Shown here one piece after another: positions 1-19,732 of a DNA stretch of 20,000 nucleotides. Every line of letters starts with the position of its first letter. Position 1 is the first letter of the stretch. The position numbers and the translations under genes were made by a program. The stretch is from Proteromonas lacertae (taxonomy: Eukaryota): positions 551,228-571,227 of the forward strand of contig NGBS01000583.1 in the NCBI GenBank assembly GCA_002245135.1, written 5' to 3'. The notes below the pieces were generated by a model. It saw only the letters and a program-made list of their open reading frames with translations, did no database searches and was not told the origin of the DNA.

Positions 1-147
1 TAATATATAGTAATTACAATAAAATTAATGAAAATATATATTTAAAGCAAAAAAAGTGTTATACACCTTCAAAAAATTGAAAAAATGAAATACACTTGGT
101 TTTTCAGAACAATTTTTTGGTAGACCATAGTTTTTTAAAATCATTCT

Positions 148-445
148 ATGTCGAAAGAGACAAAGGAAGAGGAGAAAGAGCCAATATATCCAGTATTATT
201 ACATTATATATTATAGTTACCATCATACAAATTTACAATAACAGCAATAGTTTTGATTATAATGGGTTGTGTTCTTGATTACAATGGTAAATGGTTTTGT
301 TTTTCTTGTGCTATGTCATATCATTTTGATTAGAATATATTTTACTTTTCTTTAACAAATCACTTTATTTATTATCAATTATCTTAGAGCCAGAAACATA
401 ACTAAAGTCTATAATGAAAGTTTAGCAAAAAGTAAAAAGGAATAG
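148..445 (+). CDS. Small two-transmembrane protein, 75 aa, 3 exons (148-192, 217-317, 364-445); not in the ORF track
   Basis: Removing a GTAT..TAG intron (193-216) and an AT..AC intron (318-363) gives an intact frame: MSKETKEEEKEPIYPLPSYKFTITAIVLIIMGCVLDYNGKWFCFSCAMSLFIINYLRARNITKVYNESLAKSKKE*. It has two hydrophobic segments and a C-terminal KxKxx. No homolog recognised. Confidence 0.65.
318..363 (+). other. Putative U12-type (minor spliceosomal) AT-AC intron, 46 nt
   Basis: Donor ATATCATTTT, branch-like TTTTCTTTAAC (346-356) and terminal AC. Removing it joins two exon frames, and the donor is identical to that of the intron at 8935-8887. Confidence 0.7.
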
Positions 446-625
446 TTTATTTTATATATAATATTTTTTGTTTAATAAACACAACAAAACATAATTAGAA
501 CAAAAATATATGTCATTAAAAAGTATTTATATAAATTTAATTAAAATTAACTAAAATGTTTTGTTATTAATTTTTTTTTAGGACTAATAAAATAACACAA
601 TACATATTCTTAATTTGATGAGCTG

Positions 626-1380
626 CTATTGATTAAAGCAGGATGGACAGCAAATATCAAATACATATTGCCTTTTGATTTTATTAAATTTGACAAAACG
701 ATACAATGGGACAATATGACCATTTGCACATGTTAAACAAGGTATATTATAATATCCTGTCACATCTGATTCACGCAATTGCTCATTCTGAGAGCAAGCT
801 GTCACAAATAAACCAGGATTGGTTATACCTGTCACAAAATGAATGATTAAACACGTTAATCTCTTCATGACAATAATGACAGTTAGCAGTTACATTCTGA
901 AAATTGATATATACAGTAATTGCATCTCTTAAGATGTTTAAAGGGTAAATTGGATGGTGAATTTAACACCTGATATATAATGGAGCAATAATTATCACCA
1001 CACAACACACTTATATACTCTTTTACAAGGCATATAGGTGTACCAAGGTGTGATTTTATGTGATATATGTAAGGCCTCATTATCAACTCGCCATCTTCAT
1101 CAGCATTGACATCTATAAGCATCATAATTCTTAATTATACGTTTGGATTCAAACAAAATGCATTCGAGGGCTGTGCGAGGAGACTGTACTAAAAACTCAC
1201 CATTGAGTGTATTTTGACTTTGATTAAAGGGATTGGTGGTAGTACTATAAAATATATTTTATGATGGAGCATTATATACTATAAAATGGTAGGGTCCATT
1301 AGAATTGTTTCAATGTTGCTCATTGTATCTGTATCGTAAATGTTTTCTGGTGAAAACGTTATATTAGTATCTTCATCCAT
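626..1380 (-). pseudogene. Cys-rich, putative Zn-binding protein (about 229 aa if corrected) with 2 introns and two +1 frameshifts; pseudogene or assembly error
   Basis: ATG at 1380 (MDEDTNITF). Introns 1279-1245 (35 nt) and 1140-1113 (28 nt) restore the frame. Removing one base from each homopolymer at 900-903 and 796-797 gives a continuous frame with CNYC, CHYC, CDSC, CLTC and CPSC up to TAG at 628-626. Confidence 0.6.
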
Positions 1381-3000
1381 AGCTGTGGAAATTCTGTGAA
1401 TAAACTAGAGCTATTAAATAAAAGAAAGCAAAAAATAAAGAATTTTGGTTTTAATAACTTCAATTGTTGTTTTTATTAATTACTTACAGAAATTACATAT
1501 ATAATCACTCTGTTTCAGCATTAGGTAATGATTTGATATACTATAACAGTACTGTGCTGTTTAAACGAAAAGAAACGTGAGTGTAAGACTGTTAATTTGA
1601 TGTTTTTTTATGTTTTTGAATAAATTGCTGTATAACTACTTATAAAATTTAAATTTGTGTCTGAATATATTTTTAATGCTCAATTTAGAACATATTTAAA
1701 TAAATGTAATGTTAGATAAAAATCTATTTAAATCAGCCATATTCAATGTCGTCTATTTTTTACTCTTCAAAATATCATATTTATTTGATTATGAGTATAG
1801 CAACAGTGAGTTTTGAATAATATAGTCTGAAAATAGTGTTTGACAGCCAATCAAATTCAATTTCGTAAATTTCTAACAAACAACTGAAACACATGCAAAT
1901 GTTTAATTGCTTTGAATATAAATATACAATAGAAAAATATAGCGTTGTTCAAAGTGGATCTTGCAGTTTTATGACAGATAGAGTATAGGTGGTAGTTACA
2001 CCCACAATGATTAAGTGTTTAGTTATAACGATACTTGTTTCCACGATGTGTAAAAAATATAAACTTTTTTTATACGGTAAAGAATGATTATTTTCTGTAG
2101 ATTAAAGTGATATTATTTTAGAAGTTAAAAAGGATATATAAGCTATTCTTATTTCTGTATATTCGCTGTAGCATTTTTTGAACTTATCAGGAATGCATGG
2201 TTCTTCAGCCATTACGTCAATTTCAACTATTCACATGAAATAAACTATAATAAAGAGATACTTCTTACATTCAGCATTAGCACATAGTGATGCATAAAAT
2301 AAATGGCTAACCTTGAGAAGGCTGAAGTATTGTACTATTCATAGCCTTCACTCACAATTAACAGCGATTCTATTAACATATATACTTAGAAATCATCAAA
2401 AGTAACAGTTTAATGATAATAATACTGACTGATAATCTAAAATCTACAGGATATAAAGCATTTTATATAATTAGTATGTATATTATTATAAAATATATAC
2501 ATACACAGTTCTACGACGTTTTTTATACTATGTTTCTTCTCTTTAATACACAATCTAAGCAAATGTACTACAGATTCTGTAAAATTGCTAAAGTCTAAAA
2601 ATAATACAAATATATACTGTAATATTAAGCAGTATTCCTTTTAAGAAGGTTAATATTCTATAAATTACCTTAAAAATGCAGTTTTGAAAAAAGTCACTAA
2701 CTGAAGATATATTTGAGCTGCATTCATCCAGTAAAATGCTATTTGTAATATATAAATTCTACTTATACGTATAATCCGATTTGTGAAATAGTTGCAAATC
2801 ATTCTGTGTTTATGTTTGCAGATAGTATTTTTAAGGTATACATCCTAATTTTGGTTAAATATTTTCTCCTTATTCACGATACTGAGGGCAATGCAAGTAA
2901 TTCTTAAGATAAAAAAAGAAAGAGTAAAAAATAAAAAAATAAAATTATGACATTTATGACATTTGTCAGGTAATTATTTATTTTCTTCTCAAATTCTTCA

Positions 3001-5098
3001 ATGAGTATTTCATTATGCTGTGAAATACCACTTTTACTATACACTGTCTATCTCCTTTTTAGTGTTGGTTATTGTATCTATGAATGCAACCCTGAATCGA
3101 GATTAGTTATATTTCCTTCAATAGAATCTAGTGAAATACAGCATTTCAGAAAGATCATCGATGAAGGTATTATATTCTTAGATAATATTATATAGATATA
3201 AAACCAAATCAAAATCTATTCAAATTTGTTCATATATCTGATTTACATTTGCAAGAACCTAAGAAATCATCAAATAGTAAAACATTTGAAAAATTTGTAA
3301 AGCAATACTTACCTTTATTAGATCCACAATTAATTCTAATCACAGGTGATATGGTTCATGGAGATTCTACAGGAATGGTTGCATTCAATGAAGATGAGTG
3401 GATGTTATATACAAATCCATTTAAAAATTCCAAATATAAAGATAGAATATTAGATATAAGAGGCAATCATGAATCACGAGGAATATCTGAATATAATGAT
3501 TTATACTTGAATTATTCATTTGCACATAATACTGAGCCAGTTTATAATTATGTTTATAATTTAAATAATAATACAAAATATAATTTTATTGGTTTAGATA
3601 TGAATATTTTACCTGGTACAAGATCTGTAACAAACACATTCAATTTCTTTGGAAGTATGATTAAAAGTAACTTAGATAAATTAACAACGATATTAAATGG
3701 AAATAAAGCAAATCATACTGTTTTATTTACTCATTTTCCATTAAATACAGTTTACTCATCATTATCATCAGATGGTTTAACGTTTAGAGAGATTGTTAGT
3801 AAGTATAATGTATCTTTATATTTATGTGGTCATTTACATGGTGTTTTACCATATTTACAAACTCCACATTTAACAGGTCCATATTTAGAAATGGAAGTTT
3901 CTAATTTTATGAATTCGTATAAATTGTTATTGTTATATTTCACAATAGAATTCGTTTTTATACAATGTATAATGATATAATCAGTCTTACAGATATATCA
4001 ACATTAGAATATATTCATAATCCTGTGATTGTTCATTTTATATATCCAAAAGATAGTCATTATATCATACCATCAGAACCATCATCTAATTATTCATATA
4101 TTTATTGTATGATACTTACAAATGACAAAATTAAGAATGTTTCATTATTTATTAATAATGAATATATTGGAGAATTAATTGAATTGAAAAAATCACGTTA
4201 TTATTACATTTACGATTTGAATCAATTGTCTACTAATCAAAGTCATTCAATTAAAGTTGAAGTTAAAACAAATCAATATAAAACATCATCTACAATCACG
4301 TACTATAGTAATTCATTTCGTCCTGCCTTATACAACTATATCCACCAATTATTCATGTCAATTAACTTTCCATTAGTATTGAGTCTTTACTTTTGGTTTG
4401 TATATCTTTGTTTCATTCTCGTTTTGATTATACCAAAGATGATATTGTTATATTTTACAAATACAATTAAAGATTGGTCTTTTACTACTATTATTGTATA
4501 TATATATATATATTCTATTATTATTATTATATATAAATAGTCATTAGAGAAGCAGTTATATGTAATATTTCCACCACCAGTCCAGCCAATTCAGTCATTA
4601 TTACATACAATTTTCATTAGATTAATGTTATATTGCTCTACACCATTATTCTGGATAAATATATTTGTTTGCATTTATCTAGTTAATTTTCCTATTATAT
4701 ATGGTCCAATATCCTATAAAAAGATTGGTTCTATATATTTATCAACAGTGTTTTATAATACTGATAATACTTCATTCACTATTCCAGATACTTATTTCTT
4801 AGGTGGAAATATTATTTTGTTTGTATTTGTTCCATTTTTAATACATCATTTAATATGGATTATTCCACCGTGTACCTGTATTTGCTCAATCTTATCGTTG
4901 TGGTTTTCTTACTTGTTTTTCTCGTGTTATCCATTATCAGTGATGAAGTATGTTTATCAACACAATTCTTTCTTTTTATTTCTAATGTCACCACTTACAT
5001 GGATTATTGTGTTATATCTTGCATTGACATTGGGATATTCATTGTATTATCACATGATATTATCAACTTATAATCAATACAAGTATCATAGGTGTTAA
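3001..5098 (+). CDS. TMEM62: TMEM62-like calcineurin-like metallophosphoesterase with C-terminal TM helices, 663 aa; exons 3001-3166, 3196-3916, 3949-4495, 4541-5098
   Basis: Metallophosphoesterase motifs ISDLH, ITGDMVH, DIRGNHE, FTHFP and YLCGHLH, then an LEMEV..IRFYTMYNDIISLTD segment typical of TMEM62. It has an N-terminal TM and a multi-TM C-terminus. Three GT-AG introns (29, 32, 45 nt) join the frames exactly. Confidence 0.85.
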
Positions 5099-5207
5099 TT
5101 TAAGCATTCTTTTATTTTATTCTCTTATTTTTGTTTTATAATATATAACGAACATATAAAGAACATAAATTTTAATTATATATTATTATTATGTGTTAAA
5201 CATTGAA

Positions 5208-7002
5208 TTAATCAGAATCAGATTCAAGTTCTGCCCATTTTTCACTTTTCCTAACTTCAATAGCTTCAAAGCAATTACTTTGATTTGCCTGTAACATAAT
5301 CACCAGCAGCCAGAGTTAATAAACCAAGGAAATCACTAGCAATATTTCTCTTACTTTTACCATTAACCATACGTTGAAATTCTACAATAGGATTCTGTTC
5401 AAACTCATTTTTTAAATCATTTACAATTTCAATCGATCTATTCACTTGATTAATAATCACAGTTTCTTCTTCACGAATGGGATAATCTTGATTAAAATCT
5501 TCATTAATTTCTATCATAGGATCATCCATAGTTTCATTAAATGTTGGTCCTTCTAGAAAAGATACTGTTCCATCAATTCTACTATTCATTTGTATAGTAT
5601 CATTCACTGGTGATGATGGCGACATTTGCTGCTGTTGTTGTTGTTGTTGTTGTTGTTGTTCATTATGGTCATTAATATTCATTGTTGTAAATTCAAAATC
5701 ATCATTTATTCTTTCTTCTTCATCATCTAATCCCAACTGCATTAAATCAATTTCATCTACATCATCTCTATCATCATCTCTTGGAAGTTTCTTCATTTCT
5801 GGTAATTGTCTAATGAAGTGTGTAATTGGGTTTATAAATTTGGAATATTCTGGTTTTTTATATTTTCTTTTTTTAACTATTTTATTAATATTATTGTTAT
5901 TGTTATTATTATTATTATTGTTATTGTTATTTCTTCTTCTGTTCCTTCTTGGTGTATTACCATCATCGTCATCATCATCTCCGTCATCATCATCATCACT
6001 GCCATTTTCTTCATCACTATCACTGTATATATCATCATTTTTCATTTTTCTTACAATTTCTTCAGATAATTCAGTTTCTTCATCAAATAAAGTCTTTCTT
6101 CTCTTCCTTTTATTTACTAAAGATTGTGATCTTTTATGTTTGCCAGATCCTGTTACTCTATCATCATAATCTTCATCTCCATTTAATGGACTATCATCTA
6201 ATTCTATATTATTATTCTCTAATACTGAACCTTTTAGACTCTCTACAACATCAACATACCTATTTCTTCTATTCTCACTTTCTCTTCCTTCTACTTCTTC
6301 CATATCACCTCCTTGCTCAGGTTGCATGTCTTGATATATTTCGTCTTGATCCATCATTGGCTCTGTATAATCATATTGTTCAGCTGCAGCTTGATTATCA
6401 TCAATTACTTCACCCATAGACTGAAATGTTCTTCGAGTTTCTATACTACTGGCTCTACCGCTTCTAAGACCAGTTTCTGGTGTTCTGAATCTATCAGATG
6501 GAGAGTATAATATACGACTCTCACTTGCTCCATCAATCTAGGTATTATCATAAATCAAGAAATTATACTGTAGTCATATCTAACCAATTCTGAGCAGTAG
6601 AAAAATGTTCAAATTGACTCACACTAAAATCGTCTGAAAATGACAGATCATTAGTATCTTGTATTCTAACTAGATTATCTACTGTATTGCTAGTATCAAC
6701 TGTATCATTTAGATTATTAACTGACATTCGTCTCTGGAATGTTCTCATATCATTTTCTGTATATATAACCTTTTTTGAATAAATGTAAGCCACAGCATAA
6801 ATAAATGAACTGATTGTATCAATAGATTCGTTATTATCAGGAATAACAGCGATTGCATCCTATGGCGGTTTAATATATATTTTAATACCCTAATATTGGT
6901 AGTAATAATCTGTTCTTTTGATAACCTCCTAGGATTGTTTATGGCGGTGATCATTTTTGTTAATGGCCCGTTCTGGGTGATTACAGTGCTGGCATTAAAC
7001 AT
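5208..7002 (-). CDS. RAD21: Rad21/Rec8-family cohesin kleisin; exons 7002-6889, 6859-6569, 6537-5208 with an apparent +1 frameshift near 5285 (as written it stops at 5275)
   Basis: N-terminal kleisin domain (MFNASTVITQNGPLTKM..LSKEQIITTNI..AVAYIYSKKVIY), acidic low-complexity linker, separase-type SIETRR site and C-terminal winged helix (KSKRNIASDFLGLLTL). Introns are 29 and 31 nt. RAD21 versus REC8 cannot be resolved without phylogeny. Confidence 0.8.
5626..5660. repeat. (CAA/CAG)n trinucleotide repeat encoding poly-Gln in the kleisin linker
   Basis: TTG/CTG run on the + strand, which reads as a poly-Q tract on the - strand. A second AAT/AAC run encoding poly-Asn lies at about 5886-5930. 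Confidence 0.85.
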
Positions 7003-7021
7003 TACAATAAAAAATCAAAAA

Positions 7022-7030
7022 CGCGCCAAA
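7022..7030 (-). promoter_or_regulatory. E2F-type site TTTGGCGCG about 20 bp upstream of the kleisin start codon
   Basis: Exact match to the E2F consensus TTTSSCGC in very CG-poor DNA, directly upstream of a cell-cycle gene. It is followed by the CHR-like TTTGAT. Confidence 0.5.
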
Positions 7031-7336
7031 TTTTAAGAGATTTATTCTTGATTAGAAAAACTGGTAATAACAGATGAAATTAAGGCAATTGATGCTATTT
7101 TATAAAATTATGTATTTTAATCATGAATATAGAGTATTATTTCGATTTGTATTAATTCTACATCTTCCGCTATTTCTCCATTTATGATATATAGAAATGT
7201 GAAAAGTTAATGAAAAATGCATTTATGAAATATGTCTCATTTAAGATTATCATTTTTATTTCACTATTATACCACACTTTTTATCAAATCAAGCAAATCA
7301 GTTTTTGAATTTTTGTAATTAATTCTCATTAACAAG

Positions 7337-7938
7337 ATGCCATATGATGAAAAAGATGATGATGCACCACCAAGAGGAGCTCCGGCTAGTGGATGGGGAG
7401 AGGACACCACAGGACAAGTAGTAATTCCAACTTTGGAGAAGTATTGTTATTTTTGATATATAATGATAGAAATAAACCTAAACCACAAGAAGATAATGAA
7501 ACAGGTATTTTTTATTGAAAGTTATTTATTGTAGAAGAAATAATGATTATTCCAGATATTGAAGATATACAAGAAGAAGAGAAGATGGTTGATGTTGCTG
7601 AAGCACCACAAGTAAAGACTTTCAGAGTTCAAGGATTAGAAGAATTGAAAAGAACTGGTCAATCGAGTCTTCCATTAGCTTACGATCCAGGTGTTGATCT
7701 TACAATATTAGTCACTCATTTTTTACAAGAGAACTTAGTATTATTACATATTTTCATTATTGGTTAGATTGAAGAGCCAAAAAATCCCTGGGATTTTGAA
7801 CAATTGTTACAAGATGTAAAACAAGGTATTAGAACTGATGAAGAGAAAAACGGTATTGATGAAAATAATGATGCAATGAATACTACTCAGACTGCACCAT
7901 CTTCAGTACCTGTAGCAAAACAACCACCTGGAAAGTAA
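7337..7938 (+). CDS. IFT43: Intraflagellar transport protein 43 (IFT-A subunit), 170 aa; exons 7337-7440, 7470-7504, 7535-7737, 7768-7938
   Basis: The spliced product has an N-terminal SGWG and the IFT43 core IIPDIEDIQEEE..VAEAP..RVQGLEEL..GVDLTIL..EEPKNPWDFEQLLQDV. Three GT-AG introns (29, 30, 30 nt) restore the frame. Confidence 0.85.
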
Positions 7939-8014
7939 AATTAATTATTTAATTTATTATTCTATTGTATTGTTATGAAATAAAAAAAAATCAATTAATA
8001 TAAAATATATAAAT

Positions 8015-9724
8015 CTACTTTTTCTTAAACATTCCACTAATTTTCTTCAAATTAATATCAAATGACATTTTTCTATCTCTAGGAGTGTTATTGTTATCAG
8101 AATCATTGGTAAAAGAAGTAGAACATATTTCATTCTCTTTTTTATACTGTTCTTCTAATGTATCTAAATACTGTTGATTGAATTTAAATGATAATGAATG
8201 TTGAATAATCTTACTACCATCTTCCTCAGTTAAATCTTTAACATTTGATTTTTGTAATCTTTGTAAATAAATTAGAATTTGTTCCATATCAAATCCTTTC
8301 AATTTCTCTTCAAAAAATGCTAATACAGATAAACCAACTCTATATATAACTTTCCAACCTTCAATTAAGAAGGAATCTAATACTTTAGACACTGTAATTG
8401 GTGGTAATAAACAATGACTAGTGTATAATGTCATTAACCATTCAGTGGAAAACATATCAATTATAACACCAACACAGTCAAAATGAAATGCTAATTTAGG
8501 TAAGAATTGATCTATTAAATGTTTAAATACATATTGACAAAGATGTAAACGAGGTAATCCAGACATATATAATTCATATAACTTCATTCTTTCACACAAT
8601 GTAAAGCTGTTCATTAACCAAAAGGCATTGACTTTATTCCAATTGGATATACGTAATAACTCAACAGCTACATGATTCATACCTTGACAATATTCAACCG
8701 AATCTCTTAAGAAGGAGGAAGCATGTAATAATTCTGATAATATTGATTGTTTTTGTGCTTCTGTTAGTTTATCACCAGATTCATCAATATCCACTATTTT
8801 AATATAAAAACGATAATAATATTTAGATTTATACTAGCTTCACAAGCACCATCATATCTATTATCATTAACAAATGTTCTATCTACTTAAAAAAATAGGA
8901 ATTAAAGAAAAAAATATGTAAATATAAAATGATATATCATCCATAATAACCTTTTGTATAGTTGGAGATGGTGGTTGATCAACAAATAATTCAAATACAC
9001 CTGGTTGACGATGCATTATATTATGACACTCTCTTTTCATATCCAACTCAGTTTGATATCTCCAGAAATTATATCTGTATTTTGGTGGTATTCCTGATAA
9101 TCTAATTCTCCATTTTAATAATGATTTATGAGGTTTTAATAAGACTGATTTGTAAGGATCTTCATCTATTCCTATACTATTATCATCAAAATCATAATTA
9201 GATAGTTGTCTTGTATATGTATGCTCTTTTTTGAAGAAAAATTGATTATTTGGTAAATTAATTGTTTGTTGATTTTTGTTCTTCTTTGAACCATATATCC
9301 ATGAATGCCATTTTTTACAAACACGACTACATTGACCAAGGTTTGGAGCATCTAAAAATGTGAGTATTCTTCTTCCTATATAAGTTGATTGTAAAGGTTC
9401 AGAATATGTCATTACAGAATCTGATATGTCATATCCCAATGAATCAGTTAGTAAATCTAAAACAGTATTACTTACTAATGCATTCTCAAGTTCAGCCATT
9501 GGATAGTTTAACAAAAGGTAATATGTTATTTTATCAGCATCTCTTGGAAACTATAACTATATTACTAAAATTCAAATACATATCTTTCCACAAAGGACAG
9601 TAACTCAGAACCCATATTCAGTATTGCTCTATTTAATCCAAATACTCTTCTTTCAAAATATTCATCCTTCCTAAAATCAATTTATTATTTTGAACTAATA
9701 CAAATTAGCTGCTATTCTACTCAT
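8015..9724 (-). CDS. TBC-domain Rab GTPase-activating protein with an N-terminal F-box-like motif, 519 aa; exons 9724-9702, 9670-9580, 9550-8936, 8886-8835, 8793-8015
   Basis: TBC motifs GIPPKYRYNFW, IMDDVDRTF (R finger, formed after splicing), YCQGMN (Q finger), AFWL, WLMTLY and DSFLIEGWKVIYRVGL. F-box-like ILTFLDAPNLGQCSRVCKKWHS. Three GT-AG introns (31, 29, 41 nt) plus one AT-started intron. Confidence 0.85.
8887..8935 (-). other. Putative U12-type AT-AA intron, 49 nt, inside the TBC arginine-finger motif
   Basis: On the - strand: ATG GAT GAT | ATATCATTTT..TTTTCTTTAAT TCCTATTTTTTTAA | GTA GAT AGA ACA TTT. The insert contains no GT donor, and removing it restores IxxDxxRTF and the reading frame. 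Confidence 0.8.
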
Positions 9725-9780
9725 TTTGAAGAATAAATCTATAGAAAGCTTGAAGTTTGAGTTACAAATTATTTTGAAAA

Positions 9781-11192
9781 ATGAGTGATTCAGAGTTTTG
9801 CTTTAGTTTTCAAGGCCCAAAAGCCACACCTGATTTTCCTCATACTCTCAAAAGATCCAAATCCTTCAGTGATATCTTGGAAGAAGCAGAAAATGAGAAA
9901 AATGAAACTCCTGAAAGGAATTTATTCACATCAAAGATAATAAAACAATTAAAATTCGCGAATGATGAATGTTTTAAAGAATTAACAAGGTATGTTTATT
10001 TTTATTCTTCAATTTTAGTCATTGTGTTTTGCCTCTTCCAGATACACCTTTAGCTCAATTTCAAATAGCTGTATGCACCGAAATTCATCAGATTTTACTG
10101 GTATATTTTACTGTTGATCTAATTCATAATTTTAGAATGCTTGTAGTGAAGATAAGATAGAAAAAACTGCTCTTATGGATGATTTATTTCACAATCTCTC
10201 TTGTGATATTGATTATGAAACACGAAAAAGATTAAAACTGTCAATAGTTGATCATTGTTATAGATTCTTCGAAATAGTAGCAACTTATTATATAACACCA
10301 GAAACACATACTTTATTCGCAGAACTAATAGAATCAACAAATATCCTACAAAGTCATATACTTTTTCCTTCAATTTTCGTATTATTATCATATTTATGGA
10401 TATTATATGATAATCCTAATACAAAGGATAATTATGAGAGTAAAAAGTATTGGACAATATTCTGTAAAGGCTGTAATCAGTTATTTTGGTGTGATTTAAT
10501 TAATTCAACTCATAAATATCAAGCCATATTTGATAATTTAATACATTCAATCTCCTCTATATTGTGCTCAACTGAGAATAATATTATCCCTTATATTGTG
10601 AGAAATGAGATAATATTGTTGATAGATAGATTTTTCTTCTATTATTATACAGTTAAAGAGTTGGATAATTATTTAAACAATATATACAAAGTAGATAATA
10701 GTGTAGATGAAGATTACACAGTATAAAAACTCATTATTTCATCATTTTTCTATATAGACCCATTATAATATGTTTATATTAGCAATATCACAACAAATTC
10801 ACTTAATTGAAGATGAAGAAGCATTACTAACATACCTAGATAATATCGGTAAATGTAAAGTGCCCACTGATCATAGAACTTCCTTTAAATTACAAAGTGC
10901 ACTAGTTGTATTATCATACCCTGGTGGACCTTTATTTCCCACTAGAAATGTAAGAATCGCAACAAAGAATGTAGTTAATACTTTATACCCTGCTGGTAGA
11001 TATAGTCGAAAATTAGTGAACTTATTCTTTAGAATACTTCATCCTTATTATTGGCCTAACGATGCTTTGTACTGGATTAAGCAGAATGTAATAGCTTTGT
11101 TTCAGTTGTATGTTATGTATATAGTAGCATTCTTTAGTTGGTTGAAGAGACTATTAATACCTTGTATAAAAGATAAATCTCACAAATCATAG
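9781..11192 (+). CDS. Conserved uncharacterised protein, 436 aa; exons 9781-9989, 10019-10100, 10136-10720, 10758-11192
   Basis: Three GT-AG introns (29, 35, 37 nt) join three ORF-track fragments in frame. The C-terminal PGGPLFPTRNVR..LYPAGRYSRKLVNLFFRILHPYYWP motif resembles, from memory, an uncharacterised plant/protist family. Hydrophobic tail. Confidence 0.8.
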
Positions 11193-11325: not shown

Positions 11326-11989
11326 ATGATTATCATCATTTCAGTTATAGTTGGACTGTTTTATGGAATATACTATTTACTTAAACCAAAAATAGCGGAA
11401 GTAGATGAAGAATCTCCTAAGAAAGTTCAAAGTATTTCTTCTATTTTTTATTAGCATGACTATATTGTAGATTTTGCACCAAACAAAATTCCAAAGCGCA
11501 TTGATGCAATTGTAGTAGGTTCTGGAATTTCATCTCTATGTTGTGCAGCTAATTTGAGTAATCTAGGATATAGAGTAGTAGTACTAGAAAAATCACCAAA
11601 CATAGGTGGATGTCTTCATTCTTATACATATCAAAAATATGAATTTGATAGTGGACTTCATTTCATTGGAAATATGTTTCCTGGAAAGAAAGACTTTACA
11701 TTTTTGCAAGATGTAATGGATGAAAAGGTATATTCTTTTATATAATGTTTATTTTTGAATATTAGTGTGAATTCACTTCAATGAACAGAGGAGGTGAATC
11801 AGGTGAAGCATTTGATAAAGTACTAATAGAAAACAAGACATATGAAATACCAGGTGAAGTAGACAAATGTAAGCAAGCTTTGTACAATTATTTCCCAGAA
11901 GAAAAACCAGCAATTGATCAATATTTTGATGAAATAAAAAAAGGTAAAAGTCAATACAATACATTATTCTTTTTAAAGATGTTTCCTAA

Positions 11990-12025
<36 letters not shown>

Positions 12026-13286
12026 TAGTTGGTTATCTTCATTTTTAATGAAATATTTCTATCCAAATTTAGAAGATGAAATGAAAAAAACTTTAGAAGA
12101 AGTGGTATTGAAGATAACAGATAATAAAACACTTCGTAAAATAATGTGTAGATATTATTTAATGTATATATAATATTAATCATATTTATTATATTATAGC
12201 ATGGGAGGTGGACCATCTGAAATATCGTTTGCTGCTTATTCAATGCTTACAGATCATTATTTAAAGGGATCTTCATATCCAACTGTATGTATTGACATTA
12301 TTATTATTAAATAGAAAGGTTCTGGTGATATAGCTGATAGAATAGTGAATTATATACTCAATAGAAATGGCTTATTCTTTGTTAGAGCAGATGTAAAAGA
12401 AATTATCATTAATAACAGTAATAAAAAAGTAGAAGGTGTAAGAATCAAGTATTTAGATCAATTAGTAGATGTTAAATCATCAATTGTTATATCAACAATT
12501 GGAATACCAAATACATATAAACTATTAGAAAATGTATATGAAAATATATGATAATTATATATAATGAAATAGATACCAAATGTAAAAGAATCAAAAGGAT
12601 ACAAACTAGTTCAAACCATGAGTAATAGTGAAGCAGCAGTAACAGTTGAATTAGTATTAGATGGTAGTCCAGAGGATTTTGGTATTGATTCATCCAACTA
12701 TTGGTTCTTCCCTGATGGTACATTTCACGATAACTTAGAGAAATTCTACAAGGACAGTAATACACCAATACCTGTTGTATATTGTACTTGTTTAACAGCA
12801 AAGAGTCAATATTATAGAGAGAAATATGCTGGTAAAACTTTATTACAATTAATTACATTTGGTGGTGATTATAAATGGTATGAAAAGTGGAGAAATGAAA
12901 GACCAATGTGTAGATCAGAGGAATATGCTGAAGTGAAAGATAAAATAGCCAATCAGATGTTAGAATATGTTTATAACAAATTCAAAAATGCAAGAGAAAA
13001 AGAGGTGTTTCATAGAAGTAGTTCTCCTTTAACTAATGAATTTTATATTAATACTCCACAAGGATCATGTTATGGAATAAAGCCAACACCAGAAAAGTTC
13101 CTTAATTGGAAATACTTTAGGATATTTACTGAATATAGTGGATTATATAATAGTGGTCAAGATGTGTTTAGTCATGGAGTATTAGGTGCATTTTGGAGTG
13201 GTTATTTCTGCGCTGCATGTGTGGCTCCTCAACTATTTATTAAATTGATATTATTATCTATTAAAGCAAGTAGAATGAAAAAGTAG
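11326..13286 (+). CDS. RETSAT: All-trans-retinol 13,14-reductase / phytoene desaturase family FAD oxidoreductase, copy A, 579 aa; exons 11326-11431, 11471-11727, 11766-11989, 12029-12163, 12200-12284, 12315-12533, 12573-13286
   Basis: N-terminal TM anchor, Rossmann motif DAIVVGSGIS..VLEK..GGCLHSY..YEFDSGLHFIG, SSPLTNEFY..PQGSCYG and SGQDVFSHGVLGA. Six GT-AG introns (30-39 nt) restore the frame. Confidence 0.85.
11991..12020. repeat. (TA)15 microsatellite making up most of intron 11990-12028
   Basis: Perfect TA dinucleotide run directly after the donor G. A shorter run occupies the start of intron 4496-4540. Confidence 0.9.
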
Positions 13287-13430: not shown

Positions 13431-15222
13431 ATGTTTTTAGAGATACTTTGTGTTTTATTTCTTCCAGTTGTAGGAGCTGCAGGATATTTTGGATACAAAG
13501 CGTATAAAATTAAAAACCAAAATGTGTTAGGTACAAAAATGTCAAAACTAGAACGTATATTTGTCGTATTAGTGTTTTAGTGTTTGCACCTGAAAAACTT
13601 CCTGATAGAATTGATGATATTATTATAGGAGGTGGAGTATCTGGATTAGTATGTGCTGCAAGCCTTGCCAAAATAGGTCATCATGTTTGTATTTTAGAGA
13701 AAGCAAAATCTGCAGGAGGTGCTTTACATGGCTACTCATGTAAAGAATATGAATTTGATTCTGGAATTCATTTCATTGGTGATCAAATACCTGGTTGGAT
13801 GGATTATGAAGCAATCAGAGAGTTCTGTGAAGAACCAGTTGATATGGTTGAATTAAGAGGAGGAGAAACAGGAAATGCATATGATGTAATTCAAATTGGA
13901 GATAAGGTATTTGAAGTTCCAGCTGGTGTAGATAATTACAAAAGAGCTTTATATAGTTATTTTCCTGATGAACATCAAGCTATTAATGATTTTTTTGTTT
14001 GTATAGAAGAAGCTAAAAATACATTTCAAACTACTTTTCCATTGAAAATTGTTCCATCGTATTTTTTCGATATATTTTATTATTATTTAGATTTCTTGTT
14101 CCAGTAATGAAAAAGAATATAAATAAAGGAATTAAATATGTATCCCAAACAATAGATGAAGTAGTAGATTCTTTAACAGACAATAAAGTATTAAAACAAT
14201 TACTAACTCATTATTTCACAATTTGTGGAGGAAGTACCAGCGAAGTTTCATTTGCTGTATTTGCTGAAATATTCGATCATTATCAAAGAGGAGCATTTTA
14301 TCCTGCAAAAGGAGGCATTGAAATAGCAAAGCAATTAATTAGCTATATTTTACATAGAAATGGTGTAATTTTTACTAAAGCTGATGTTGATGAAATAATG
14401 ATTAATGGAGATAATGTTGTTGAAGGTGTAAAAGTGAAATACTTAAATGAATCAGTTGACATTAAATGTAATAGTGTTATTAGTTCAGTTGGTATGATAC
14501 ATACTTATGACTGTATAAAATCTGTTGAAGATATTAGATCAACCAGTGAATATCAATTCATTAATCATTTACAACCATCAGATAGTAGTGTTATTGTTGA
14601 ATTGGTATTGGATGGTAAACCAGAGGATTATGGTATTACTGCTTCAAATTATTGGTTCTTCCCAGAAGGTAGTCATAGTGAAAATATTGAAAAATATTAC
14701 AGAGAAAAGAATCATCCAATACCAGCTGTGTATTTTACATGTATATCAGCAAAAAGTCCATATTTCCATGATCTACATCCAGATAAATGTGTTATCCAAG
14801 CATTGACTATATGTGGTCAATATGAATGGTTTGATAAATGGAGAAGTGAAAGACCAAAGAATAGATCTGAAGGATATGAAGAAGTTAAAGATCAAATAGC
14901 TAATCAATTGTTAGAATATATTTTTAATCGTTTTCCAGGTACAAGAGATAAAGAAATATTACATAGAAGTAGTTCTCCTTTAACTAATGAGTATTATATG
15001 AATAGTCCAAAAGGATCATGCTATGGATTAAAACCAACACCAGAAGTGTTAATGAATGGTGATTATTTCCCAATTGTTAGTAAATATAAAGGATTATGTT
15101 TAACAGGTCAAGATATATTCTGTCATGGTATTGTTGGTGCATGGTTAGGCGGATTTCTTACTTCGTTAATGGTTTTATATTTTCAAATTCATAAACACAA
15201 ACAAACACAAATGCAACAATAA
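13431..15222 (+). CDS. RETSAT: RETSAT/phytoene desaturase family FAD oxidoreductase, tandem copy B, 577 aa; exons 13431-13554, 13581-14058, 14091-15222; aberrant C-terminus
   Basis: Collinear with copy A (IIIGGGVSG, YEFDSGIHFIG, SSPLTNEYY, TGQDIFCHGIVGA). Two GT-AG introns (26, 32 nt). Similarity to copy A ends at about 15174. Confidence 0.8.
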
Positions 15223-16806: not shown

Positions 16807-19645
16807 TCATAAATTCGTAGATATAACAAGAGTAATAGTTCCAGAAACTATTTGAGCCACTTCTGCACCTAACATAATTTTTCTTGTAGTTAAACTATCT
16901 TTAAAAAAATTTTCAATTACTTCACTTATAATTCCTCTAGCACATAATATTATTGTATTAGGAACTGTTGTAAATGGCTCACAATTAACTATTGATGCTA
17001 TAGTTATGCCAATACTAAAACCTATTGAAGCAAATGCTGATACAATCTTGACAGTCTTGACTAATGGATTAAACTCTACATTGTCTACTGGTGGATGAGA
17101 AAACATACGCAAAGTATCTAATGCGTGATGAACTATACAAGCTAACATTGATAAGAGTGCATCACCCATACTCGTTTTTTTATAAGGTATACATGAATCG
17201 ACAAACATAGATATAGTCATAATCAGATCTGCAGATGCAGCGAAAGGCTTTATAGCTTCGTTTTGTGGCAAAAAAGAACCAATTTTAAAAACTCCACCTA
17301 CTACTTGTATAGATAACACTATGCAACTTGTTACTACAGACCGAGTCATTTTCTTTATTTTTGTTAATATGGTATAAGGAATGGAAGCAGCTAGAGAAAT
17401 GACTGATAACCAGGTTATTTTACCTAATCCTAGGTATTTACATATGGAACTGATGATGGGTATCTCCATATTTATAACATCTCTTAAATCAGAGAGTATA
17501 GATCCTATAAGATCAATTGCAATTTGGAATAACTGTTTTGATACATTTAAAACAACGTCTATTAACTCTCTAATTGCTTCACAAAAAGTATTCAAAACAT
17601 TATTTATTACATTTCCTTTTGTAAAAGCATCTTTGATTTTATTGAAAAAATTATCAAATACTCCTTCGTAATCTCCAATAAATAAACACTTGGACATTAA
17701 TGAATCCATGAACTTCTTAAACATTTTTTCAAAGATACTTCCAATGCTTTTCTTTTTGTTTTCTGATATTAACGAATATGCTACATAATTATTTTGAGAT
17801 AATCTATCTGATTCTTCATTAACAGTTTCTTGTTTTATAACATTTTCTCTTTCTTTTTCTAAATAAGATACAGTTTCATTTTTTTTATTTTCTATTTTAT
17901 ATATTTCATTGTTAATATTCTGTTTCCAATTTGACCTAGTTTCACTATTATTAAATTGATTTATTAATAGCTCAAGATTGCTATTAATACTTCTTTCTAT
18001 TTCTTTAGCATTTCTAAATACATCACCAATGTTGAACAATCTACATAAAAATTTACCTATATCAACTATTATATTACCTAAACGAGATATATAAGCTAAA
18101 AACGAATGCCATCAATTTTTGAGCTGTATCGCATATCCATTTTATTGTATATCTTATGCCATCAACAATGTAATCAATAATTATATTCATTTTCTCTTTT
18201 ACAAAGTATGTTATTTTGCAACTCCATGATATACTGCAGAAGTAAATTTTTAATACTGTTCCATATGGATTTAAGACCATCTAAAACAGCATTTCTTCTC
18301 TTTATAATACCTCTACCACTTTCATATGTTCCATCGTCATTTAGTACAAAATAAAAACAATCATCTAATGAATTTCCATCTTTAGTCATGCTTTCTTCCT
18401 CATTTAATATATCTATTGCATCTAAAAAACTCTTACATTTTTCTTTATCATCTGCTATTGAAAAATCTTTTAGATCTTCTTCTTTATAGTTTTTATTTCA
18501 TTTAGCACCTTTTCATTTGGATCAATAACTTCTTTTGTGCCTCCAAATTCGATTGTATATGAACATCCTGCTATATCATCAAATACTTCTTCCAATATTG
18601 TAAAATAACCACATGTAATTGGAACTGTTATAGGCTTTCCTGAATCTACAAAATATACTTTATCATTTATAATTAATGAGCTATATTCATCTGTATATAT
18701 TGTAATATTATCTATATCGTCACTCAATTCATTGTCTTTATATATTCTACATTCAGTCATCATCACATTACGAATAGATGCTTTATCTTCTGACGAAAAC
18801 ATGTACATTGGCATTATATCTATCGACATTTTTTTAAATTTTACTTCATAATCATCTCCATATTCTTCTACTTCGATAAATGTACCATCATCGCATTCGA
18901 AAGTTACTTTACCCATATCTTTTATATTACTGCACCACTAAGTACAAATTGCAATTTTTTTTCAAAAATATTGGGACTATAAAGAATTATGTTTTCACCA
19001 TCTGATAGAGCTTCTGCAAACATTTTATTATTCTTTATTACAAACTTTTTAAAGTAAATTTCCATCTCTAATTTTATTTTTTACTATACATCTATCATTT
19101 TCTATTTTTAATTGGTATAGCATAGTTTTATGATCCACAGTGTTGTTACATATATAAAAACAATCATTATCTCCTGAATATTGCATTAGAGTAACAGAGC
19201 CAATTTCATCGAAAAAACTTACAAATGTCTCACTCGACATACGATACACCCCTCTTGATGTCAATACTAAACGCTCACCTTGGGCATATACAAACGAATA
19301 ACGAAATTCTTCTGACAACTGATGTGTTTCATAATCTCTATCTTCACCTAAAATAGAGGCGCATAAAGCATATGTATTACCTAAACTATCTCTATATAAA
19401 CAAAATATTATAGGTTCATCAGCCATTTCCATACTTACACTAATTAGCTTACCTTCTACACTTATCTCTTTTGTGACCATGTCTTGCACTTTAATTCCAA
19501 CTGTAATACATCCGCCATATTCACTACTCAGCAACTCATAAGTCGTATCTTGATAGTAAAAAACTGGGTGCATGCGAGATGCTAGCTTGTAATCAAAGTT
19601 CGTATTATATGTATAACATGAATAGTGTTCTAAAGAATAGACCAT
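16807..19645 (-). pseudogene. Single intronless gene of about 945 aa broken by five single-base frameshifts; beta-rich N-half, helical middle, hydrophobic C-terminus; uncharacterised
   Basis: ORF-track pieces 19645-19049, 18916-18470, 18389-18174, 18280-18074 and 18039-16807, plus an unlisted frame at about 19080-18925, join via shifts at about 19082 (+1), 18928 (-1), 18485 (-1), 18245 (+1) and 18098 (+1). No in-frame stop and no intron is needed. The true start is uncertain. Confidence 0.7.
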
Positions 19646-19706
19646 TAGACAATAAAATCCTTAAAATATCTTTATAAAGATAAATATTGATGAATCGTCA
19701 TATTAA

Positions 19707-19732
19707 GGGCGGGGTTAGGGGGAGAGCTAGGG
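19707..19732 (+). other. Canonical G-quadruplex-forming motif GGG-C-GGGG-TTA-GGGGG-AGAGCTA-GGG
   Basis: Four G-tracts of at least 3 with loops of 1, 3 and 7 nt. It is the only such G-cluster I saw in the window and contains one GGGTTAGGG. Confidence 0.55.

What the first reader, a model, noticed from the sequence alone, without database searches (positions are those of the whole stretch)
318..8935. Two independent non-GT introns share one altered consensus: candidate lineage-specific miniaturised minor spliceosome
Seen: the introns at 318-363 (+) and 8935-8887 (-) lie in unrelated genes. They share a 10/10 identical donor ATATCATTTT and the branch motif TTTTCTTTAAY, and both (46, 49 nt) are longer than all 25 GT-AG introns here (24-45 nt). 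Both differ from the canonical U12 signals in the same way: donor +6 C to A, and branch TCCTTAA to TCTTTAA. Inference: U11/U6atac and U12 snRNAs carry compensatory changes. Two of 27 introns would also be a very high minor-intron share, since such introns are usually under 1%, though this sample is tiny.
Basis: partly seen in the sequence, partly recalled or inferred. Interest (0 to 1): 0.85.

Follow-up and report, generated by a model that had tools for sequence, protein, structure and literature searches.

The report
Tiny minor introns with shifted donor
Two unrelated genes of an unidentified flagellated protist each carry a very short intron with the signals of the rare "minor" splicing class and the same unusual letter in the start signal, which likely marks a lineage-wide shift of that signal, although neither RNA evidence nor the splicing machinery could be examined.

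Summary
The sequence facts hold. 318-363 (+, AT-AC, 46 nt) and 8935-8887 (-, AT-AA, 49 nt) share donor ATATCATTTT and branch motif TTTTCTTTAAY; 0 of 200 shuffles gave that pair twice. The second intron is forced by homology: of 913 open junctions the best 7 all remove 49 nt, none is GT/GC-AG, and splicing restores the TBC IxxDVxRT motif. The first has motif and reading-frame support only. Much of the claimed novelty is known: Blastocystis has about 1% short AT-AC/AG/AA minor introns longer than its 30-nt major ones, and the TTTTCTTTAAC branch occurs in human minor introns, so no U12 change is needed. What stays unusual is donor +6 A (0 ATATCA against 336 ATATCC in Blastocystis; 5 donors against about 1,300 in human/mouse). 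Two of two argues for a lineage trait, but cannot separate a new fixed A from a relaxed position in AT-rich DNA, and a canonical look-alike lies at 2137 (-). No genome, RNA or snRNA was available. The scan noted similar off-consensus pairs on other DNA, not this motif. New variant of a known kind; interest moderate.

The parts
318..363 (+). Predicted U12-type AT-AC intron, 46 nt, phase 2
   Evidence: Donor, branch motif and AC end in the sequence; removal gives a 75-aa open frame, retention stops at 54 aa; no homolog found to confirm the junction
318..327 (+). Donor ATATCATTTT (+6 A in place of C)
346..356 (+). Branch-like motif TTTTCTTTAAC, 7 nt before the 3' end
148..445 (+). Predicted host gene 1: 75-aa small protein with two hydrophobic stretches, exons 148-192, 217-317, 364-445; also a 24-nt GT-AG intron at 193-216; family unknown
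   Evidence: no Pfam family, no homolog, no Atlas hit for exon 2
8887..8935 (-). U12-type AT-AA intron, 49 nt, phase 0, inside the TBC IxxDVxRT motif
   Evidence: Best of all junctions with recognisable ends against a profile of 130 homologs; no GT/GC-AG junction up to 100 nt keeps the frame
8926..8935 (-). Donor ATATCATTTT
8901..8911 (-). Branch-like motif TTTTCTTTAAT, 14 nt before the 3' end
8015..9724 (-). Host gene 2: F-box plus RabGAP-TBC protein, about 520 aa, with three GT-AG introns besides the AT-AA one (5' end from a crude parse)
   Evidence: Pfam PF00566 E 1.6e-32 and PF00646 E 1.9e-6; gene model; 94% identical relative P0004
2093..2137 (-). Look-alike with the canonical donor ATATCCTTTT, then CACTTTAAT and possible AC/AG/AA ends (41, 43, 45 nt), in a stretch that does not parse as an intact gene; status unknown
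   Evidence: 0.29 such loose matches expected by chance, 52 of 200 shuffles

Best explanation
Both stretches are likely U12-type (minor-class) introns removed by a minor spliceosome in an AT-rich, tiny-intron flagellated protist whose minor donor consensus has likely shifted from ATATCCTT to ATATCATT. Inferred mechanism: the U11/U12 particle binds the donor and the TTTTCTTTAAY branch site together; an unchanged U12 would pair with this branch site through one G-U wobble; the acceptor is the first usable AC/AA 7-14 nt after the branch motif; the extra length over the major introns makes room for two fixed signals. The +6 A is a true mismatch to a canonical G, so the U11 base facing it has most likely changed to U (about 0.35 overall); U6atac need not have changed. 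Shown: motifs, coordinates, non-GT-AG junction forced by homology for intron 2. Inferred: intron 1 as spliced, the machinery, the lineage-wide reach, any snRNA change.
For: Intron 2: 913 open junctions scored; top 7 all 49 nt (284-286 bits), AT-AA at 8935-8887 scores 285.9 against 279.6 for the next junction with recognisable ends; no GT/GC-AG up to 100 nt, and 115-127-nt GT-AG options score 256-258 and delete the motif. Intron 1 matches the intron 2 template with expectation at most 3.3e-3 and ends in AC in frame. 0 of 23 GT-AG introns have C at +5 or a C(C/T)T(T)AAY motif. +6 A is rare where counted: Blastocystis table 336 ATATCC, 3 ATATCT, 0 ATATCA; human/mouse table 1,329 TATCC, 66 TATCT, 9 TATCA of which 5 in donor columns; two of two has likelihood about 1e-5 in such a lineage, 0.13 if +6 were free, about 0.8 if A were fixed. 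Short AT-AC/AG/AA minor introns with full machinery exist in Blastocystis; AT-AA is the commonest non-canonical minor end in animals and plants; coevolution of signal and snRNA has a precedent in Physarum U12.
Against: n = 2, and only one junction is validated. Exon 3 of gene 1 scores -0.5 in a codon test, matched by 89 of 365 stop-free noncoding stretches, and a 47-nt GT-AG intron at 287-333 gives a 60-aa rival frame, though its GTAA donor and 28% GC are unlike all 23 others. A canonical ATATCCTTTT look-alike sits at 2137 (-). U6atac variants that do not pair with these donor positions are published for oomycetes, Acanthamoeba and others, and in yeasts donor preference switched without U1 or U6 change. 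No minor snRNA lies in the window. The lineage is unplaced; ciliates, one candidate group, have no minor snRNAs.
Confidence: 0.5

Rival explanations
1. They are minor introns, but donor position +6 is no longer read, and A is simply what AT-rich drift puts there; the snRNAs are canonical or mismatched at that place.
For: Intron interiors are 36% A and 52% T, so A twice has probability 0.13; mismatched U6atac variants are tolerated elsewhere; donor shifts without snRNA change in yeasts; the +6 C look-alike at 2137 would fit a mixed position.
Against: About sixfold less likely than a fixed A on two of two; T would be the likelier drift letter; +6 is among the strictest positions in Blastocystis, where +7/+8 are looser (183 of 336 have TT).
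Confidence: 0.25
2. There is no separate minor spliceosome; one major or hybrid machine that already wants xTAT donors removes these AT introns with help from a strong branch site.
For: All 23 GT-AG introns begin GTAT, sharing +2..+4 with the AT donors; hybrid machines are proposed for Giardia and some other lineages (passages); ciliates lack minor snRNAs and the organism is ciliated or flagellated.
Against: C at +5, the 11-nt branch motif and non-AG ends occur together only in the two AT introns; 23 of 23 major introns end in TAG and lack the motif, which points to two recognition systems.
Confidence: 0.12
3. The lineage has ordinary ATATCC minor introns; intron 2 is a lone weak-donor outlier and intron 1 is either a second outlier or not an intron.
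For: Such outliers exist (human RNF123 ATATCATTT); intron 1 lacks homology support and has a GT-AG rival; windows are selected for oddities; canonical look-alike at 2137.
Against: A chance site matching the intron 2 template is expected at most 3.3e-3 times; two outliers have likelihood about 1e-5.
Confidence: 0.1
4. The two introns are copies of one small mobile element, or the odd ends are assembly errors.
For: Identical 10-nt starts; element-derived minor introns are proposed for Physarum.
Against: Interiors and 3' ends differ and lengths differ; the flanks show no shared or duplicated target and the ends are not inverted repeats (by eye); an error would have to hit both ends of intron 2 and recreate the same motif twice.
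Confidence: 0.03

Closest known systems
Blastocystis ST1 minor (U12-type) introns (PMC5608401: Introns section, S1 Table, searched rows of S11 Data; PMC10639083: passages)
   Same: Tiny-intron genome with major introns near 30 nt; minor introns somewhat longer (median 39 bp), AT donors with AC, AG, AA and AT ends, branch site close to the 3' end, share near 1%.
   Different: Blastocystis keeps +6 C (336 ATATCC, 0 ATATCA in the held, truncated file); its snRNAs and proteins are identified; it has lost nearly all cilia genes while this window holds IFT43, so this is probably another organism.
Canonical human/mouse U12-type introns (PMC6717393: searched rows of one supplementary table; PMC2846911: passages)
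   Same: RTATC start, TTAAY branch; the very branch TTTTCTTTAAC/T occurs in RASGRP3 and MLXIP; AT-AC and AT-AA ends.
   Different: The stated donor rule RTATCCTT allows C-to-T at +5 or +6, not A; TATCA donors are 5 entries against about 1,300 TATCC.
Physarum polycephalum transformed minor system (bioRxiv 10.1101/2020.10.12.336362: passages; supplements closed)
   Same: Lineage-specific change of a core minor signal; AT-AG and AT-AA ends.
   Different: There the branch changed (TTTGA) with a matching U12, and donors are RTATCYTT; here the real departure is donor +6 A, the branch is within the canonical range, and no snRNA is in hand.
CC and ATGGA variants of U6atac (PMC2396436: section 16 and passages)
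   Same: Natural variation in the snRNA bases that face donor +6/+7.
   Different: The AATGA form predicted for ATATCATT is not among the variants listed there and was not found in one metagenome scan.

Membership tests
U12-type (minor) intron | Is an intron at these coordinates (junction needed for the protein) | tested here: met
   Met for 8935-8887 by homology; for 318-363 only by open frame and motif
U12-type (minor) intron | Donor core RTATC at +1..+5 with TT at +7/+8 | tested here: met
   Both ATATC-A-TT
U12-type (minor) intron | C (or T) at donor +6, as in the RTATCCTT rule | tested here: not met
   A in both; rule as stated in PMC2846911. Rare A donors are nonetheless catalogued as minor in human/mouse, so this marks a variant rather than excluding the class
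U12-type (minor) intron | Extended branch site of type TTCCTTRAY near the 3' end | tested here: met
   TTTTCTTTAAY, one C-to-T from consensus, seen in human minor introns; absent from 23 of 23 GT-AG introns
U12-type (minor) intron | Termini of the minor repertoire (AT-AC, AT-AA) | tested here: met
U12-type (minor) intron | Spliced in RNA at these junctions | not testable with these tools
   No sequencing run was listed
U12-type (minor) intron | Genome encodes U11, U12, U4atac, U6atac and minor-specific proteins | not testable with these tools
   No genome held; none within the 20 kb
U12-type (minor) intron | Position shared with a minor intron in orthologs | tested here: inconclusive
   No related locus fetched; the only TBC-named gene among TBC1D/EVI5/RABGAP1 in the human/mouse table is TBC1D32, orthology not examined
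Coevolved minor spliceosome (Physarum-like) | Altered signal holds genome-wide | tested here: inconclusive
   2 of 2 in the window, one canonical look-alike of unknown status
Coevolved minor spliceosome (Physarum-like) | snRNA carries the complementary change | not testable with these tools
   Organism's snRNAs unavailable; 52 metagenome matches to a predicted variant U6atac motif held 0 U6atac genes
Introner-type mobile introns | Copies alike along their length, with repeats at the ends | tested here: not met
   Only donor and branch motifs are shared

The most novel reading that the evidence does not exclude
This flagellated protist has rewired the most conserved signal of minor splicing: its minor introns start ATATCATT genome-wide and its U11 (perhaps also U6atac) carries a compensating U, a natural case of donor-snRNA coevolution in the minor spliceosome, in introns under 50 nt. 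If the organism proves to be from a group thought to lack minor splicing, such as ciliates, the case is stronger still.
Probability: 0.35. Interest if true: 0.72.

Novelty: new variant of a known kind. Interest (0 to 1): 0.5.

Why it matters
Donor +5/+6 CC is the hallmark by which minor introns are found, so a lineage with +6 A would be scored down by standard classifiers (the human ATATCATTT donor scores 59 against 85-100 for most CC donors shown) and could be miscounted as having lost minor splicing. It would also give a natural test of which snRNA reads +6: the published U6atac variants that fail to pair there are described as hard to explain, and the Physarum preprint presented branch-U12 coevolution as the first such case. 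Gene callers limited to GT-AG would break the TBC gene at its catalytic motif.

Tried and rejected
Whole genome: none held. Sequencing runs for 1-9900: no RNA holder listed, so no reads were laid. Rfam on the window: one weak snoRNA match at E 0.087, no spliceosomal RNA. Related loci of the TBC exon in JGI metagenomes: 245 pattern matches, 0 confirmed. Intron motif in viral contigs, as a chance gauge: 120 listed, about 310 estimated; 9 of 120 were open only if spliced and 15 of 120 open unspliced, so collection-wide motif scans are too noisy and none was run on metagenomes. Predicted variant U6atac motif (recalled core, one base altered) in metagenomes: 52 matches, 0 with a U6atac family hit in all 52; uninformative for this organism. 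Gene 1 family: nothing in Pfam, the 5.8-billion-protein search or the Atlas; a recalled resemblance to PAT10/Asterix was not tested. Organism: word searches gave only 24-34% hits; the HMMER search gave unnamed Logan relatives at 94% and 81%; named hits among 19 hits looked up were three stramenopile clusters at 33-38%; a tree of 162 TBC stretches left the window's branch unplaced (support 0.185). Proteromonas lacertae matches only in GC (27.0%) and flagella; a lead, not an identification. Blastocystis rejected on IFT43. Literature: full-text search for TATCATT with U12, intron and splice site listed 7 papers, none by title or abstract on a shifted minor donor (listings only); searches likewise showed no +6 A lineage; subscription papers, the intron database behind PMC10639083 and bioRxiv supplements were not seen and could hold such a case. 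The stretch 1560-2990 could be parsed through 2137 only with atypical introns and has no Pfam match in the five fragments scanned.
Full report
Setting. The window is 27% GC, gene-dense, read in the standard code, with introns of 23-45 nt. It holds IFT43 (Pfam E 6.8e-12), so the organism builds cilia or flagella. No genome and no sequencing run were available, and the lineage could not be placed.

The observation. Alone, each motif is at chance level, as is a loose pairing (2 seen, 1.20 expected). The strict pair is not: 2 seen, none twice in 200 shuffles. Because that motif was defined from both sites, I also took intron 2 as template; a second match is expected 1.4e-4 times at window composition and 3.3e-3 at intron composition.

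Intron 2 (8935-8887, minus). It interrupts an F-box plus TBC gene. I built a profile from 130 homologs longer than 300 aa, of 157 proteins then held, leaving out the window's close relatives, and scored all 913 frame-keeping junctions of 20-100 nt around the site. The top seven all remove 49 nt; among them only 8935-8887 has recognisable ends (AT-AA, 285.9 bits; three slid versions with TA-AG, AT-GT, TC-TA ends score 286.3). The next junction with plausible ends scores 279.6. No GT-AG or GC-AG junction in that range keeps the frame, and four longer GT-AG options (115-127 nt) score 256-258. Splicing gives KVIMDD|VDRTF, in register with VILRDVDRT in homolog P0006. A non-GT-AG intron here is therefore well founded.

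Intron 1 (318-363, plus). Removal gives a 75-aa protein with two hydrophobic stretches; retention stops at 54 aa. No homolog or family was found, exon 3 is weak in a codon test (89 of 365 noncoding stretches score as high), and a GT-AG intron at 287-333 is a formal rival, although its donor and GC content differ from all 23 accepted introns. It rests on the template match plus an in-frame AC seven bases after the branch motif. I put it near 0.9.

Two intron classes. All 23 GT-AG introns I could support start GTAT and end TAG (partly built into my parse), none has C at +5 and none has the branch motif. The two AT introns have both, end in AC and AA, and are the longest of the 25. That is the pattern of U12-type introns beside U2-type ones.

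What is already known. Blastocystis ST1 has 346 minor introns among about 35,000, with all four snRNAs and seven proteins, median length 39 bp against 30 for major introns; rows seen in its intron table end in AC, AG, AA and AT. AT-AA is the commonest non-canonical minor end in animals and plants. So miniaturisation, odd acceptors and a share near 1% are not new. Two of 25 has about a 2.6% chance at a 1% share (hand arithmetic), and the window was selected for this. The branch change is not lineage-specific either: TTTTCTTTAAC/T is listed for human MLXIP and RASGRP3, TCTTTAAC for HSBP1 and PPME1, and C-to-U opposite G is a wobble pair.

What remains unusual. The donor rule allows T but not A at +6. 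The Blastocystis table, as far as it is held, has 336 ATATCC, 3 ATATCT and 0 ATATCA starts; the human/mouse table has 1,329 TATCC, 66 TATCT and 9 TATCA strings, 5 of these in donor columns. Two of two with A has likelihood about 1e-5 in such a lineage, 0.13 if +6 were free in this AT-rich DNA and about 0.8 if A were fixed. A canonical lineage is thus unlikely, but fixed against relaxed is only about six to one. Against a uniform shift stands a canonical ATATCCTTTT with a branch-like CACTTTAAT at 2137 (minus): a loose match is expected 0.29 times, the strict form only 0.003-0.008 times, and it lies in DNA that does not parse as an intact gene. It may be chance or a relic minor intron.

Mechanism. 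From established knowledge (recalled; the papers on U11 and U6atac pairing were seen only as references), U11 and then U6atac pair with donor +4..+8 and U12 with the branch. The AAGGA stretch of U6atac faces TCCTT, so ATATCATT predicts AATGA, and U11 a like G-to-U change. But U6atac variants that do not pair with these positions occur in oomycetes, Acanthamoeba, Physarum and others, and yeasts switched donor +4 with no U1 or U6 change. Compensation is therefore plausible for U11, optional for U6atac and unnecessary for U12. Physarum shows that signal and snRNA can coevolve. A scan for the predicted U6atac variant in metagenomes gave 52 matches and no U6atac, which says nothing about this organism.

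Earlier notes of this scan hold none for this genome or sequence and none with this donor motif; they include similar cases on other DNA, which I used as leads only.

Papers seen: PMC10639083, PMC11347168, PMC2846911, PMC12129017, PMC5953543, PMC13685798 and the Physarum preprint as passages; PMC5608401 as passages, the Introns section, S1 Table and searched rows of S11 Data (file cut when stored); PMC2396436 as passages and section 16; PMC6717393 as searched supplement rows; PMC10581693 as abstract and section 7; all others as search listings.

Verdict. Two real, probably minor-class introns; one new-looking trait, donor +6 A, likely lineage-wide but resting on two cases; compensation untested. 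New variant of a known kind, interest 0.5.

Noticed in passing
window, 23 GT-AG introns (list): All start GTAT and end TAG, with no branch consensus. Invariant +4 U is linked to loss of METTL16 or SNRNP27K in yeasts (PMC10581693 abstract); worth checking in this genome. My parse favoured these ends.
   Followed up: partly
window 2093-2137 (-): Canonical minor donor look-alike with a branch-like motif, in a stretch (about 1700-2900) of broken reading frames.
   Followed up: partly
window 520-1560 (-): Broken Cys-rich reading frames; 629-889 has a weak, below-cut-off match to phage terminase gpA ATPase (E 0.0057), possibly a decayed viral or mobile element.
   Followed up: partly
window 7337-7938 (+): IFT43 with three introns of 29-30 nt; shows the organism has cilia or flagella.
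   Followed up: yes
window about 11326-13286 and 13431-15222 (+): Tandem pair of FAD-dependent oxidoreductases (retinol-saturase-like by recall); the first has six introns, the second only two that I could support; nearest database hits are 24-26% identical.
   Followed up: partly
window 5275-7002 (-): Rad21/Rec8-like gene (weak Pfam match E 0.03) with poly-N, poly-Q and acidic runs.
   Followed up: no
window 3001-5098 (+): TMEM62-like metallophosphoesterase, 664 aa, three introns.
   Followed up: no
window 16807-19660 (-): Long unknown reading frames broken by a few stops or frame changes, intron style unlike the rest; no significant Pfam match.
   Followed up: no
window 19706-19732 (+): Short G-rich island containing one TTAGGG-like unit in otherwise AT-rich DNA.
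   Followed up: no
P0076, P0154, P0155: Unnamed relatives 81% identical over the matched stretch, on 14 contigs in all, whose frame diverges right after the EQILMY motif, as if they carry an intron the window's gene lacks.
   Followed up: no
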